64,000 nucleotides of DNA, taken from Raja brachyura. Lineage: Eukaryota. The stretch is from contig OY740790.1 of NCBI GenBank assembly GCA_963514005.1, forward strand, positions 56,048,001-56,112,000, written 5' to 3'. A program made the position numbers. Positions 42,001 to 48,000 of this stretch are shown here, one piece after another; the stretch's first letter is position 1; each line of letters opens with the position of its first letter.

Positions 42001-45000
42001 ACCGAACTAAAATAGAATTAAAGCCCGGTAAGTATTGGGTGCAAGGGCTGCTTTCCCCATTCAATAATTCCCCTCTGCTTTTGCTAAGGCTGCTCCCTGC
42101 TGTGATATTTGTTCCTAACAGTGAAGTGCATCATTCTTGTTCTTATCTCAGAATGATTGGGAATTGATGCAAACCTGGGACACAAGCCATGCAAGCGATA
42201 ACACAGAAGGTCGACGTGGAACATCATAAAACTGCTGAACACCAATTCTTGCTGACTGTTAACTGGATGTTCTCTTTCAATAAATCCCTTGCGCTGACCC
42301 TATGCTCTATCTTCTCCTTATCTGCCCCTAACTAACTCTCGGAAGCTGTGAAATATTGTACTTCAGTGATACCCATCTTTTCATTCCAAAACACGACACG
42401 CACTGATAAATCCAAGGGCAATGTGCTTTCATAATTATTCTATTATGTTCTCGGAGCCTGACATGGATTGTCCATGTATTCTGCTCTCTCTGCTTCAAGA
42501 AACTATGATAAACGGATCACTTTCTCTGGCTGACAGCTATTGCCTAACACCAAAAACAAGAACTGATTAGAGCACACTTCCTCGGGTATGTTCTGCGTTT
42601 TTTTTCCCTGCCTTCTTTAACTATTCCTCAGGAGGCCTTGGAATGCAGAGTAATGACCTAATCAGGGATAAAGGGTCATTGTGCCCTCTCGCTGTGATGA
42701 CAAAGACAGAGTAGAATTGGAATAATTTTATCTATTGTCGCATTACTGCCGCTAAAAAGAAATTTGAATTCACAGGTCATTTTCTGTTAATGTGCCACTG
42801 AAGTATGATATTTTAGTTTCAGTGCTGCAATCAATAAGGAGCCCAAAACTACATAAGATGTTCATTGTGTCTATATTTCAAGCTCGGTGTCTCTTTGGGG
42901 GAGGGGACTCAACATACAGCTAAAATAATTTGATTTAAATGTACATCATTTTGTGCAGTAGAACATCTCAATAAGTATGTTTAATTCTGCCTTGAACAGA
43001 GAATTAGATAAATTCTGCCGAACAGAGACTAAACTAAAAATCATTAAATTCACAGGGTTTTGTGAATTGTGAACGGACCTCACTCTGAAAACAAAAATAA
43101 GCAATTAATTTACGCCTGCCGCAACCTCTTCGAAAATATAGCTTGTATGGTTTAAATATTTGGAAATAAATCCTAAGGATACTTCCTGCCATATATCTTT
43201 ACAGAATTGCAATCACCATGGTAATGGCTGAGAAACTATTTTACCCAGTTACTGTGAAGAGTAATATTTGTAAGATTTCATCGATCTGTCAGCTGCCATA
43301 AGCATAAGTTTTATTTTGCATTTATGATAATACCAAAGCCAAAGATATTATAACGACAATGAAAATGTTGTAACATTCAGTGAACGCTCTCCGATGGCAA
43401 CTCAACTATATGGCTTCAGAACAAACTGAACAGCTCGCTGTCTGAAAGGTTTTACATTGCCCCCTTTAAGGATTGTCTCCAGATTAACTGATATTTATTA
43501 ATTGATGCAACACTGAGGCTAAGAGGCAGCATAATGTCTAGCAAGGAATTGTGGATGCTGGTTTGAACCGAAGATAGACACAAATAGCTGGAGAAACTCA
43601 GCGGATCAGATAGCATCTCTGGATAAAAGGAATAGGTGACGTTTCAGGTCGAGGCCCTTCTTGTGTCTTTTGGTGTCTATCTTCAGCATAATGTAGTGTA
43701 GGTCAGGTTTAGAAGAGAGTCTGAATGAATTATCACAGATGTGCGGGAAGGACCTGCTTCCTTAAACAGAGGATTGAGCAACTTGAAGGCTAGATCTAAA
43801 ATGATTCATAGAAGGTAGAGAGAGAGAGATAAGAAAAATGTTTACACCCGGGGCTAGTGGGGGGCCTGCAAAGGGGTTGGTACAGGCCAGAACCTCACAG
43901 AAACTTGGAAACATAGAAAATAGGTGCAGGAGTGGGCCATTCAGCTCTCTCTTTTTTATTCTTAAAAAAAAAAAAAAATTATTAGAAGCAATTGTACAAG
44001 AATAAGACGACCGACAACAGTTATACAATTATTGTACAGCTTCATTTTTAACCTTATAACCTAAATTTAAAAAAAAAAGAAAAAAGAAAAAAAAAGAAAA
44101 CAAAGAAAGAAGAAAAAAAAGTAAAATACAAAAGTGCAGGAAAAAGACCCCTAAGCCACCAAAAAAATCCAACTCTCTCTTGAAAACATCCAGTGAATTG
44201 GCCTCAACTGCCTTCTGTGGCAGAGAATTCCACAGAATCACAACTCTCTGGATGAAATGTTTTTCCTCATCTCAGTCCTAAATGCCCTACCCCTTATTCT
44301 TAAACTGTGACCCCTGGTTCTGGACTCCCCCAACATTGTGAACATTTTTCCTGCATCTAGCCTGTCCAATCCCTTAAGAATTTTATATCTCTGAAACTCT
44401 GATCTTGTGTTCTTCTGGTGTGCGGGGTTTTTCTATTTGCGCAAAAATGGCACACGATAGCACTACGATTTTTCACCAGGTTACTCACCGTTCTCCTGTG
44501 CTGTGAGTGCAGCAAGTTTCGTTCCAATCGGTGGTATATTGCAAAAAGTTATCGAGATTTAAAAATCTTAAAAAGCGCGCGTGCGCAGATTCCTTCAGTC
44601 AGCACCATGCAGATTGGTCTCTTCTCCTGTTAGTCAATGCCACAGCCTGGATGGCGATGCCCCTTACTGCCCCATTGGTGGCGGCCTGTCCTGCCTCACT
44701 CACAAACTCCTCTCTCCCCTCCTCACTGTAACTTGTCTATCATCTTCCCTACCATCTGCAGTGGCCACAGGGCAGGTTCAGTGGAGGCCCTGGTCCCTTC
44801 TCTCTCTCCCTCATCACTCACCCCTCTCCCCTGCCCGCCTTCTGCGGCAATGGCGGTCCCGTCTACCCGTCCCCCCGGGTCCGTCTCTTCTGCCGCCGCC
44901 GGTGCGGTAACTCACCCTTGGAGGAGATCTTGGAGGAGATCTTCGCCACCAGCTCATCGAAACTCATGGTGCCCACCATGACGAACACCGACTCCATCCC

Positions 45001-48000
45001 CCCCACCTCTCTCCCTCGCGCCCGGAGGCGGGAGTGAGCAGGCAGGCCGGTAGGCGGGTGGGCAAGGGCGAGGACGGACTGAGCGGCAGCAGCGGTCGGA
45101 CAGGACGGGGACGGGCCGAGCGGCAACTGAGTCGGAGTGGGCAGAGGGAGGGAGGGAGAGTCGGGTTGCAGGGTGGCCGAGCAGTTTGCGCGGGGTTTGA
45201 GTAACTCACACACACACACACCCACACACACACACACAATACAAACTGGTCCAATTTCAAGTCAACGGGATCTAAAGCACAGCTAACAATGAATGACCTG
45301 TGGAGGAAGGAACTGCAGATGCTGCTTTTTATGGGTGGAGGGAGGGAGTGACTGAGGGTAGGGGAAAGGAGAGGGAGGGAGAGGTGACAGAGGGATTGGG
45401 GGAGGGGAGGAGGAGATGGGAAAGATCGTGGGGAGGTGAGGAAGAAGATGGGGGGGTTGAGGGAGAGGAAGGGGTAGGGAGGGAGAGAGGGGTAGTGGGG
45501 GAAGTGAGGAGACTGGGGGAGGAGTGGAAATAGAGGGAGAGGAGGGCAGTGGGGGAGGTGAGGAGTGGGGGAGGTGGGGGATAGTAGGGGGTAGGGAGGG
45601 GAAAGATCGAGGGAGGGAATAACAGGGTAGGGAAAAGGAGAAGGAGGGAGAGGTGAGGGAGGGATTGGGGGAGGGGAGGAGGAGAGGGGAAAGAAGAGGG
45701 AGGGTTAAGAGGAGAGGGAGCGAGTGCTGGGGATTGAGGGGAAATGAGCCATGCCTGCGCAGTTTGGGTCTATGCGTGAGTGGTGCATTATTGCGTTGGG
45801 AGGACGGGTAACATTGGGGGAACGGGTGAGTGGTGGAATATTGCATTGGGGAACGGGTTGCGTTGGGGGACCAGGCCTCCCATGTGACAAGGACCCAACT
45901 TAGTCTAGTGTTTCTATAAGATCCCCTCTCATCCTTCTAAATTTCAGTGAATACAAACCAGTGAATACAAAATTCCAGTGAATCAGAAAGAAGCAGTATT
46001 TTGAGGTGCTTGTGAAGAAACCTGGACCTGGTTTTGGAAGGTAGCATAGACATGATAGGCTGTCTTTATTGGCTTAGTTTAGAGATACAACATTGAAACA
46101 GCCCTTCAGCCCACTGAGCCTATGCTGACCACCGATCTCCCGTTCACACTAATTCTATGTTATCGCAGTTCCTCATCCACTCACTACACCCTAGCAATTT
46201 ACGGAGGCCAATTAACTTACTAACCAGAGCACCCAGAGGAAGCCCATTAGTCACAGGGAGAACATACAGACTCCACACAGACAGTACCCGAGGTCAGGAT
46301 TGAATCCGGGTCTCTGGTGCTGTGAGGCAGCAGCACTACTGGCGATGTGAGTTTATATATGGTCAGTGATTTATATGATGCCAAGTTTGTGAAATCAGTG
46401 TCTGGACTGAATCAGTAAGTGGATTTTAATCAACTATGACTGTTTTTGTTTTGTTAGCTCGTACCTTATCCCTTACGGATTTGAAGCCATTCTTTTCATT
46501 GAGCCAAAGTGTGATAGTGTACAGGACTCAAGCAGGCCTTTCCAACTCCCCCAGGTTCTACCACTCACCAACCAGGGGCAATTTGCAGGGGTCAATTAAT
46601 CTACTAATCCACACTTACTTTGGTATGTGGGAGGAAACTGGAGAACTTTGATTTTTTTCTATTTAGCAGGTTTTCCGTAAACTATTTCTGCCTCTTAACA
46701 TCGAGAGTAAGGCTGAACCATATGTAGAAACACAATAATTTGTAAACAAAGCACTGTGTGTGATCATGTTGTGATTTCTATTAGATAACTGTTCATGTAG
46801 TGTTTGCTGTTAACTAAATCTGGCTCATTACTCAGTTTAGTTTAGTTTAATAGTGATACATTGCGGAAACAGGCCCTTCAGCCAACCGAGACTGCACCAT
46901 CCAGCGATCTCAGTACACTTTCACTATCTGACACACTAGGGACAATTGACAAGTTTTTACTGAAGCCAATTAACCTACAAACATATACATTTTTGGAGTG
47001 TGGGAGGATGTACGATCTCCATGCAGACAGCACCTGTAGTCAGGATTGAACATGGGTCTCTGGAGCTGCAAGGCAGCAACTCCACCGCTGTACCACAGTG
47101 CTGCCCAAAATCGAATACTCTAAATCTTAAGGGCCCATTTGTCTGTTGGTTCAAAATGGTGCTATTTTCAGGAGTGGACAGACCATGGGTTTCATCTGCA
47201 CATTTTGCATGGTAGCTGGGCAGAAGACATTTGAGAAAGCATTTAATTGCAAGAACACAAGGAAATAGAAACAGGAGTAGGGAACTAGGCCCCTCAAACC
47301 TGATCTGCCAATTAATATGATCATGGTTGATCCTATTCTCTGCCAATCCTCCATAATACACATTACTTGATCTTTTAAATATTTATCTATCTCCATCATG
47401 ACTATTTCTGATGATCTAGCCCTTACTATCTTCTGGGATGGAGAATTCCATGAATACTGGGATTTGTAAATAGAGGCAGTAAATAAAAACATAAAGAAGT
47501 CATAATAACCTTTTTTCAAATGACAAATGTTACAACTGAGTATTATTAACAATTTTGAACCAGACATTTTAAGAAGGATGCTGAAGCCTTGGGGAAGGTA
47601 GTACAATTTTACCAGGATAAGACCAGCCAAAAGCAAGATACTATATGTTGAAGTGATTAGAAAGGTCATCCTCGTGGTCCTTAAGGCAGAGAAGTTTAAG
47701 GGGACATTTGGTAGAGGTATTCAAAATAATGAGTGTGATTTTGACAAATAAAAGGAATATCCAGAGAGCATAATTTAAAAAGATAACTTCTAATTGAGGG
47801 GAAATGAGGAGAATTATTTTCATGTATAGAGTCGTGGGAGACAACTACCCAAAGGTGTGGTAGATGCAGAATCCACTGGATCTTTATAAAGGCAATTGGA
47901 TGTGAAGGAAACTAATTGGCAGAGTTGAAGAGGGAAACGTTGGGGCATGGGAGTAACTTGGACTAGTCCTTCAAAGAGTTACATAAATTTGAGTAAATTG

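What the first reader, a model, noticed from the sequence alone, without database searches (positions are those of the whole stretch)
44388..45908. Helitron-like element that has captured the first exon and splice donor of the glycosylation gene ALG13
Seen: the element starts TC, ends CTAG and splits a CR1 exactly between A and T with no TSD or TIR. It carries a CpG-rich antisense segment encoding MESVFV(T/M)VGT(T/M)SFDELV... followed by GTGAGT. Known: TC...CTRR ends with A|T insertion define rolling-circle Helitrons, which capture host gene fragments (well documented in maize and vesper bats). VFVTVGTT.FD.L is the N-terminal signature of ALG13, the UDP-GlcNAc transferase subunit. Inference: this is a Helitron family amplifying a housekeeping gene's 5' end in a cartilaginous fish. 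I know of no report of this but cannot check the literature.
Basis: partly seen in the sequence, partly recalled or inferred. Interest (0 to 1): 0.9.

Follow-up and report, generated by a model that had tools for sequence, protein, structure and literature searches.

The report
Helitron-like transposon carrying ALG13 exon 1
A 1.5-kb mobile element with the end signature of rolling-circle (Helitron) transposons sits inside an older repeat in a skate-like genome and carries a decayed copy of the start of the glycosylation gene ALG13, a kind of gene-fragment capture already well known from bats and maize.

Summary
Window 44388-45908 starts TC after an A and ends CTAG before a T. It interrupts a LINE ORF2 3' end. 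Four of 4 other copies of that LINE in the window run straight across the site, so there is no target-site duplication or deletion. There are no terminal inverted repeats.

A second copy (~36740-38033, 5' end masked by N) is 83-90% identical. It ends at the same CTAG|T with an unrelated flank.

On the minus strand both copies carry ALG13 exon 1 plus a GTGAGT donor. Copy A matches 25 of 27 residues of Leucoraja erinacea ALG13. No other ALG13 exon lies in the window. Both exon copies are broken. The flanking 390 nt is CpG-island-like.

Best reading: a non-autonomous Helitron that captured the ALG13 promoter, exon 1 and start of intron 1, much as HelibatN3 carries NUBPL.

Weak points:
- No convincing 3' hairpin.
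- No RepHel partner in the window.
- Only two copies seen.
- No eukaryotic genome collection was available, so copy number, the true ALG13 locus and empty orthologous sites stay unchecked.

This is a new member of a known kind, of moderate interest.

The parts
44388..45908 (+). Copy B: complete Helitron-like non-autonomous element (1521 bp), TC...CTAG
44388..44389 (+). 5' terminal TC, preceded by A at 44387
45905..45908 (+). 3' terminal CTAG, followed by T at 45909
   Evidence: Homology with copy A stops here.
44388..44640 (+). 5' region of the element of unknown origin. In antisense it has CCAAT-like boxes and a second donor-like GGTGAGTAAC (44496-44487).
   Evidence: Read. No significant Pfam match. 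83% identical to copy A.
44641..44909 (-). Sequence downstream of the donor, presumed start of ALG13 intron 1
   Evidence: Position after GTGAGT. Origin from ALG13 is inferred, not tested.
44910..44915 (-). GTGAGT splice-donor motif, copy B
44916..44997 (-). ALG13 exon 1 coding copy B (82 nt, MESVFVMVGTMSFDELVAKISSKISSK+G). Decayed: T7M, T11M, a 12-nt tandem duplication at 44917-44940 and a +1 nt length change.
44998..45190 (-). GC-rich, CpG-island-like sequence upstream of the ATG (presumed ALG13 5'UTR/promoter)
   Evidence: GC 0.73, CpG o/e 0.81. Promoter function is inferred.
45207..45238 (+). (CA)16 microsatellite inside the element
45331..45720 (+). G/A-rich low-complexity tandem-repeat block, about 276 nt longer than in copy A
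45776..45870 (+). 1.9 copies of a 50-nt tandem repeat near the 3' end
   Evidence: Also in copy A.
45857..45888 (+). Imperfect subterminal palindrome ending 20 nt before the 3' end. It needs G.T pairs.
   Evidence: RNA parameters. DNA folds are no better than shuffles.
36740..38033 (+). Copy A: second copy. Its 5' end lies under N run 36583-36739 and there is an internal N run 37504-37650. It ends CTAG (38030-38033) before T at 38034.
37231..37311 (-). ALG13 exon 1 copy A (81 nt, MESVFVTVGTTSFDELVEKISS*KAVR). 25 of 27 residues match L. erinacea ALG13. TAG at codon 23.
37225..37230 (-). GTGAGT splice-donor motif, copy A
44138..44387 (-). Left flank: LINE ORF2 C-terminal coding end (host repeat split by copy B)
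45909..45975 (-). Right flank: continuation of the same LINE copy

Best explanation
Window 44388-45908, and the second copy at ~36740-38033, are old, decayed copies of a non-autonomous canonical-type Helitron.

Shown:
- The unit was inserted as a block exactly between an A and a T of a LINE copy, with no target-site duplication.
- It has TC and CTAG ends and no inverted repeats.
- It carries, in antisense, a copy of ALG13 exon 1 with its splice donor, about 270 nt of downstream sequence and a CpG-island-like upstream stretch.

Inferred mechanism:
- A RepHel transposase encoded elsewhere nicked at the TC end and peeled off one strand.
- It ended transfer at a CTAG and pasted the strand into AT sites.
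- The ALG13 5' end was acquired when an ancestral element sitting in or next to ALG13, antisense to the gene, failed to stop at its own 3' end.
- Transfer ran on through intron 1, exon 1 and the promoter to a new, weak terminator upstream of the gene (the end-bypass transduction shown experimentally for Helraiser).
- This would also explain the poor 3' hairpin.

Each copy then carried a potential promoter + ATG + donor module. The two copies seen here are broken as coding exons and show CpG decay, so they look neutral.
For: - Ends and site. Four of 4 paralogous LINE copies are contiguous across the site.
- Chance of the TC/CTRR/A|T pattern is about 1.5e-4.
- No inverted terminal repeats.
- Two copies, 83-90% identical, share the 3' end CTAG|T and have unrelated 3' flanks.
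- Target sites are AT-rich: 0.80, 0.60 and 0.85 in 20-nt flanks, against 0.57 for the window. Helraiser shows the same preference (passages of PMC4778049).
- ALG13 identity: all 5 proteins scoring E<=10 among 20 candidates carry PF04101. L. erinacea ALG13 is 95% identical over the 22-aa part. tblastn E is 2e-8 and 3e-5. PF04101 matches profile positions 2-19 (E 0.13, below threshold).
- The match ends at GTGAGT.
- Only exon 1 of 1130 aa is found in the window.
- Decay: T7M and T11M are CpG transitions (ACG/ACA versus ATG). There is a stop in copy A and a duplication plus a +1 nt change in copy B.
- Precedent: HelibatN3 carries the NUBPL promoter, 5'UTR, first exon and part of intron 1. Helibat1/Helraiser ends are TC/CTAG (passages).
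Against: - The 3' subterminal hairpin is not convincing. DNA folds of the last 49 and 80 nt of both copies give -4.2 to -7.7 kcal/mol. z-scores are +0.5 to +1.4, and 138-182 of 200 shuffles fold at least as well.
- A consensus fold with RNA parameters gives a 13-pair imperfect palindrome. In each copy 4-5 of its pairs are G.T and none is compensatory. It ends 18-20 nt from the 3' end.
- The 5' end is seen in one copy only.
- There is no RepHel ORF in the window. The longest stop-to-stop ORF outside the two element copies is 251 aa. Pfam found only a LINE-associated domain in 1 of 42 ORFs >=120 aa, and nothing in 150 ORFs of 70-119 aa.
- Only two copies are seen.
- An 86-aa ORF of copy A found no related ORFs in the protein collection.
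- That the sequence around the exon really comes from the ALG13 locus is untested at DNA level.
Confidence: 0.7

Rival explanations
1. The unit is mobile or was copied, but not by a Helitron. It could be another class that leaves no target-site duplication (for example a Crypton-like element, or a LINE-dependent or repair-mediated insertion of a DNA fragment). The TC/CTAG/A|T pattern would then be coincidence.
For: - There is no significant 3' hairpin.
- No RepHel is in the window.
- The 5' end is seen only once.
- The register is ambiguous by 1 nt.
Against: - The joint end and site pattern has a chance of about 1.5e-4.
- The second copy independently has T after the same CTAG end.
- Neither end resembles anything else in the window, including LINE tails. 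Apart from copy A and the element's own internal low-complexity repeats, the only match is a 33-nt internal motif.
- The unit contains promoter-side sequence and unspliced intron, so it is not a processed retrocopy starting at the ALG13 transcription start.
Confidence: 0.2
2. The two copies are part of the real ALG13 locus, or of a local segmental duplication of it, and not transposed elements.
For: Two copies lie in the same orientation 6.4 kb apart. Skate introns can be long, so missing exons alone are weak evidence.
Against: - Homology between the copies stops exactly at CTAG|T, with unrelated flanks.
- Copy B sits precisely inside a LINE copy whose two halves rejoin base for base in 4 of 4 paralogues.
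- Both exons are broken: a stop in A, and a frame change plus Thr-to-Met changes in the conserved motif in B.
- No other ALG13 exon lies in the 64 kb.
Confidence: 0.03
3. The resemblance to ALG13 is a chance match of a short GC-rich ORF.
For: - Pfam is below threshold: 12.7 bits against a cut-off of 22 for copy A, and no hit for copy B.
- No PDB chain was matched.
- E-values in the 5.8-billion-sequence search are 0.03-4.5.
Against: - 25 of 27 residues are identical to a skate ALG13, starting at its Met1 and ending where a GTGAGT follows.
- All 5 scoring hits are PF04101 proteins.
- tblastn E is 2e-8 within the window.
Confidence: 0.02

Closest known systems
HelibatN3 (Myotis Helitron subfamily carrying the NUBPL promoter, 5'UTR, first exon, splice donor and part of intron 1)
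   Same: - A non-autonomous element with TC/CTAG ends and an A|T target.
- Its cargo is the 5' end of a housekeeping gene: CpG-rich upstream region, start codon, a short first exon and the donor.
- Source: passages of PMC4778049 and PMC4224331.
   Different: - The host is a skate-like cartilaginous fish and the cargo is ALG13 (27 codons against 6).
- Copy number is unknown here (2 seen), against about a thousand copies in the bat.
- Promoter activity and chimeric transcripts were shown for HelibatN3 and are untested here.
- The 3' hairpin is not evident here.
Helraiser / Helibat1 autonomous Helitron
   Same: 5'-TC and CTAG-3' ends, insertion between A and T, and a preference for AT-rich targets.
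   Different: - Helraiser has a 19-bp palindrome 11 nt from the end and encodes a 1496-aa RepHel.
- The skate element has no coding capacity.
- It has only an imperfect, G.T-dependent palindrome ending 18-20 nt from the end.
Maize and other plant gene-fragment-carrying Helitrons
   Same: Non-autonomous Helitrons that carry pieces of host genes, exons and introns together.
   Different: Plant elements often carry fragments of several genes. Only one recognisable gene fragment was found here.
Helentron / Helitron2-type elements common in fishes (recalled)
   Same: Rolling-circle superfamily, present in fish genomes.
   Different: As recalled, these insert between T and T and have short terminal inverted repeats. 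The element here has an A|T site and no inverted repeats.

Membership tests
Canonical Helitron (non-autonomous) | 5' terminus TC | tested here: met
   44388-44389 in copy B. The 5' end of copy A is under an N run and was left unread.
Canonical Helitron (non-autonomous) | 3' terminus CTRR | tested here: met
   CTAG in 2 of 2 copies (45905-45908 and 38030-38033). Homology ends there.
Canonical Helitron (non-autonomous) | Insertion between A and T without target-site duplication | tested here: met
   Copy B: 4 of 4 paralogous LINE copies are contiguous across the site, with a 1-nt register ambiguity. Copy A: only the T on the 3' side is visible.
Canonical Helitron (non-autonomous) | No terminal inverted repeats | tested here: met
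   None of the 14 inverted pairs involves the termini.
Canonical Helitron (non-autonomous) | GC-rich hairpin about 10-20 nt upstream of the 3' end | tested here: inconclusive
   DNA folds are not more stable than shuffles. The consensus fold gives an imperfect palindrome with G.T pairs and no compensatory change, ending 18-20 nt from the end. The copies are about 15% diverged.
Canonical Helitron (non-autonomous) | An autonomous partner encoding Rep (HUH) + helicase with the same termini | not testable with these tools
   None in the window. No eukaryotic genome collection was available.
Canonical Helitron (non-autonomous) | Many dispersed copies sharing both ends | not testable with these tools
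   Two copies in the window. The genome-wide count could not be made.
ALG13 (PF04101, glycosyltransferase 28 C-terminal domain) - exon 1 fragment | N-terminal motif and identity to a named ALG13 from Met1 to the exon 1 boundary | tested here: met
   Copy A matches 25 of 27 residues of L. erinacea ALG13. GTGAGT follows.
ALG13 (PF04101, glycosyltransferase 28 C-terminal domain) - exon 1 fragment | Pfam PF04101 at or above the gathering score | tested here: not met
   12.7 bits against a cut-off of 22 for copy A, and no hit for copy B. This is expected for 22-27 residues of a 166-position model. It is a fragment, not a gene.
ALG13 (PF04101, glycosyltransferase 28 C-terminal domain) - exon 1 fragment | Remaining exons of the gene nearby (would make it the true locus) | tested here: not met
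   tblastn of the 1130-aa protein finds only residues 1-28 and 1-23. The other rows have E >= 0.7.
Promoter/first-exon capture of the HelibatN3 type | Active promoter and splicing from the captured donor into host exons | not testable with these tools
   Only the composition is known: GC 0.68 and CpG o/e 0.75. No transcript data.

The most novel reading that the evidence does not exclude
Skates harbour a high-copy canonical Helitron family, otherwise rare in cartilaginous fishes, whose genomes are poor in DNA transposons. It has scattered a CpG-island promoter + ATG + splice-donor module from ALG13 across the genome. Some copies act as alternative promoters or exon traps that create lineage-specific chimeric transcripts. 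This would be a second, independent vertebrate case of the bat HelibatN3 phenomenon. Two independent copies within 8 kb hint at thousands of copies, unless their closeness is chance.
Probability: 0.15. Interest if true: 0.6.

Novelty: new member of a known kind. Interest (0 to 1): 0.35.

Why it matters
If genome-wide data confirm it, this would be a documented case of Helitron gene capture in a cartilaginous fish. The cargo is of the same kind (promoter, first exon, donor) that bat Helitrons amplified preferentially. That would support the idea that capture of gene 5' ends is a general property of the transposition mechanism and not a bat peculiarity.

Practically, such copies can seed false ALG13-like first exons in gene predictions for skates. 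They can also mark TE-derived promoters.

It does not open a new kind of biology.

Tried and rejected
- Structures and Pfam. A PDB sequence search with the 27-aa peptide of copy B gave 0 hits at E<=10. Pfam on copy B's peptide gave 0 hits.
It was repeated with the contiguous 40-aa in-frame window stretch.
- Search for ORFs from other copies. The 86-aa in-frame ORF of copy A, at near lengths, gave 2 candidates and none scoring. This says little, because intergenic eukaryotic ORFs are rarely in that collection.
- Rfam on the whole window gave 0 matches at gathering scores.
- Pfam on 14 ORFs of the element gave only sub-threshold chance-level hits: TMIE E 0.023, NXF_NTF2 E 0.02 and others at E 0.067-0.18, all below their cut-offs. 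I take these as noise.
- Search for RepHel or any gene in the window:
  - 42 ORFs >=120 aa outside the elements gave one LINE-associated PF09004 hit only.
  - 150 of 164 ORFs of 70-119 aa gave 0 hits. The 14 ORFs from 58922 onwards were not sent.
- A 12-nt similarity between 44419-44430 and 45187-45198 is at the level expected by chance, by my own estimate.
- Retrocopy of ALG13 mRNA: rejected, because intron and upstream sequence are present.
- True locus or segmental duplication: rejected.
- Not done:
Only the single exon, as contiguous window sequence, was used.
  - The N runs were not filled. Paralogues of copy A's flank were deliberately not used to infer the masked letters.
  - The closed collections (metagenome contigs, viral contigs) were not searched. 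Genome contigs holds only bacteria and archaea and was not used.

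
Full report
**What is there**

Window 44388-45908 (+) is a 1521-bp block. It begins TC directly after an A (44387) and ends CTAG directly before a T (45909).

The sequence on both sides is a single copy of a dispersed repeat read in antisense. Translated on the minus strand, other copies give the C-terminal end of a LINE ORF2...LRGDLIETYKILKGLD.... A PF09004 domain, which I recall as typical of such fish LINEs, lies in another LINE fragment at 35090-35470. 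The clade label CR1 was not tested here.

I blasted the two flanks separately against the window. This found four further copies that cover both flanks. In 4 of 4 the base matching 44387 is immediately followed by the base matching 45909 (junctions 11420/21, 22240/39, 33502/01, 61889/90). The block was therefore inserted precisely, with no target-site duplication and no loss of target bases.

The element's first base and the first base after it are both T, so the register is ambiguous by one base. With the Helitron convention the site is A|T.

No terminal inverted repeats exist. From the window's base frequencies, the joint pattern TC + CTRR + A/T flanks has a chance of about 7e-5, or 1.5e-4 allowing both registers.

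**Second copy**

A self-BLAST of the element finds one other copy. It covers 36740-37503, 37658-37823 and 37744-38033 at 83-90% identity. Over 760 aligned positions the K2P distance is 0.155.

- Its 5' end and left flank lie under the N run 36583-36739. A second N run (37504-37650) covers an internal part.
- Its 3' end is the same ...AGTCTAG followed by T. After that the two loci are unrelated.
- Shared ends with different flanks mean two transposition events, not a segmental duplication.
- Flanks are AT-rich: 0.80 and 0.60 for copy B and 0.85 for copy A, against 0.57 for the window.

**The gene fragment**

On the minus strand:
- Copy A reads MESVFVTVGTTSFDELVEKISS*KAVR followed by GTGAGT.
- Copy B reads MESVFVMVGTMSFDELVAKISSKISSK, one extra G, then GTGAGT.

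A 40-aa contiguous in-frame stretch of copy A was searched against the large protein collection, longer proteins only.
- It returned 20 candidates, of which 5 scored E<=10. All 5 carry PF04101.
- Among them is the named ALG13 of Leucoraja erinacea, 95% identical over the 22-aa part.
- That protein starts MESVFVTVGTTSFDELVEEISSERAVRILKD, so copy A matches 25 of its first 27 residues.
- The E-values (0.03-4.5) are weak only because the database holds 5.8 billion sequences.

tblastn of the 1130-aa skate protein against the window gives E 2e-8 for copy A and 3e-5 for copy B. Nothing else scores below E 0.7. The window therefore holds exon 1 twice and no other ALG13 exon.

Pfam places copy A's peptide on positions 2-19 of PF04101, but below threshold (E 0.13, 12.7 bits against a cut-off of 22). 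It gives nothing for copy B. No PDB chain matched.

The match stops where a consensus donor begins, and about 270 nt of further sequence follow. The fragment was therefore copied from DNA (exon plus intron), not from spliced mRNA.

Upstream of the ATG lies a GC-rich stretch. 44800-45190 has GC 0.68 and CpG observed/expected 0.75, against 0.40 for the window. This is the composition of a CpG-island promoter.

Both exon copies are dead as coding sequence:
- Copy A has TAG at codon 23.
- Copy B has Thr-to-Met changes at codons 7 and 11 of the conserved motif (ACG/ACA in A against ATG in B, which are CpG transitions).
- Copy B also has a 12-nt tandem duplication (44917-44940) and 82 instead of 81 nt before the GT.

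Only this one exon, as contiguous window sequence, was used.

**The rest of the element**

The remaining parts are:
- a 250-nt 5' region of unknown origin;
- a (CA)16 run;
- a G/A-rich low-complexity block about 276 nt longer in copy B than in copy A;
- 1.9 copies of a 50-nt repeat just before the 3' end.

Pfam on 14 ORFs of the element gave only sub-threshold, chance-level hits. Rfam found nothing in the window.

**What it is**

Precise insertion at A|T, TC and CTAG ends, no target-site duplication, no inverted repeats, an AT-rich target and a cargo of host gene DNA together are the signature of a non-autonomous canonical Helitron.

The closest described case is HelibatN3 of vesper bats. From the passages I read in PMC4778049 and PMC4224331:
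- The Helibat1 family ends 5'-TC/CTAG-3' and inserts between A and T.
- HelibatN3 carries the NUBPL promoter, 5'UTR, first exon (six codons), a splice donor and part of intron 1.
- Bat Helitrons captured gene 5' ends preferentially.
- Helraiser experiments showed that the transposase can read through a weak 3' end and end at a new terminator downstream, transducing the flank.

I propose the same route here. An ancestral element lay in or near ALG13, antisense to the gene. It bypassed its 3' end and picked up intron 1, exon 1, the promoter and upstream sequence. This step is inferred.

**What speaks against it, or is missing**

- Hairpin. The defining 3' hairpin is not convincing.
  - DNA folds of the last 49 and 80 nt of both copies are no more stable than shuffles. 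z-scores are +0.5 to +1.4, and 138-182 of 200 shuffles fold at least as well.
  - An RNA-parameter consensus fold gives a 13-pair imperfect palindrome (45857-45888 in B, 37985-38015 in A). In each copy 4-5 of its pairs are G.T, and none is compensatory. It ends 18-20 nt from the 3' end.
  - Erosion in 15%-diverged copies, or a makeshift terminator, could explain this. The feature stays inconclusive.
- 5' end. It is visible in one copy only.
- RepHel. No RepHel gene lies in the window.
  - The longest stop-to-stop ORF outside the two element copies is 251 aa.
  - Of 42 ORFs >=120 aa outside the elements, 1 hit a LINE-associated domain and 0 hit Rep or helicase domains.
  - 150 of 164 ORFs of 70-119 aa gave 0 hits. 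The 14 ORFs from 58922 onwards were not sent.
- Copies. Only two are seen. A search for ORFs from other copies found none.
- Unchecked. No eukaryotic genome collection was available. Copy number, the autonomous partner, the true ALG13 locus and empty orthologous sites are all unchecked.

**Literature**

The full-text library gave these counts:
- 0 papers holding both Helitron and ALG13.
- 2 papers holding Helitron and skate. Judging from their titles and the passage read, neither is about skate Helitrons.
- 9 papers with Helitron and elasmobranch.
- 18 papers with Helitron and 'cartilaginous fish'.

From passages read:
- The whale shark genome paper lists Helitron among the superfamilies present (PMC8455134).
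- Chalopin et al. infer Helitrons in the ancestral vertebrate mobilome (PMC4350176).
- Shao et al. report very few DNA transposons in the elephant shark (PMC6817897).
- In the spiny dogfish paper, 'Helitron' occurs only in a reference (PMC10468316).
- The two little skate genome papers showed 0 occurrences of 'Helitron' in the search listing. Their supplements were not opened and may hold repeat tables.

I found no report of gene capture by a Helitron in a cartilaginous fish in these searches. Subscription-only papers and Repbase/Dfam entries were not searchable.

**Verdict**

- The phenomenon is a new member of a well-known kind, not a new kind.
- Confidence that it is a Helitron-mobilised capture of the ALG13 5' end is about 0.7.
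- The source organism is probably a skate or close relative. This is judged only from the 25 of 27 match to L. erinacea ALG13 and the repeat content.

Noticed in passing
window 45305-45324 and 37706-37725; also 3898, 5711, 17708, 39824, 54240, 54273: A 20-nt motif inside both element copies is the head of a different dispersed repeat. It has 8 matches at <=3 mismatches against 0 expected. At 39843-39824(-) it continues into an unrelated repeat body. The element therefore contains a short piece of another repeat family.
   Followed up: partly
window 44480-44640 (minus strand): The element's 5' region, read in antisense, has CCAAT-like boxes, a GCGCACGCGCGC stretch and a second donor-like GGTGAGTAAC (44496-44487). 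This may be a second captured promoter and non-coding first exon. There is no protein match.
   Followed up: partly
window 11210-11472, 22214-22460, 33454-33667, 44138-44387+45909-45975, 61697-61940: Five copies of the same LINE ORF2 3' end lie in 64 kb, 80-84% identical to the split copy. The ORF 11334-11978(-) reads a 214-aa LINE C-terminal region. PF09004 is at 35090-35470(-).
   Followed up: partly
window 36583-36739 and 37504-37650: Two N runs (157 and 147 nt) cover the 5' end and left flank of copy A and an internal part of it. They were left unread.
   Followed up: no
window 45331-45720 versus 37744-37823: The G/A-rich low-complexity block is about 276 nt longer in copy B than in copy A, with internal 54-nt and 16-18-nt periodicities. 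It has expanded or contracted since insertion.
   Followed up: no
window 45939-45983: A 14-nt tandem repeat (2.9 copies) lies in the LINE flank just right of the insertion.
   Followed up: no
whole window: No Pfam-recognisable host gene exon appears among the 192 ORFs scanned outside the elements. The window looks like repeat-rich intergenic or intronic DNA, with CpG o/e 0.40.
   Followed up: partly
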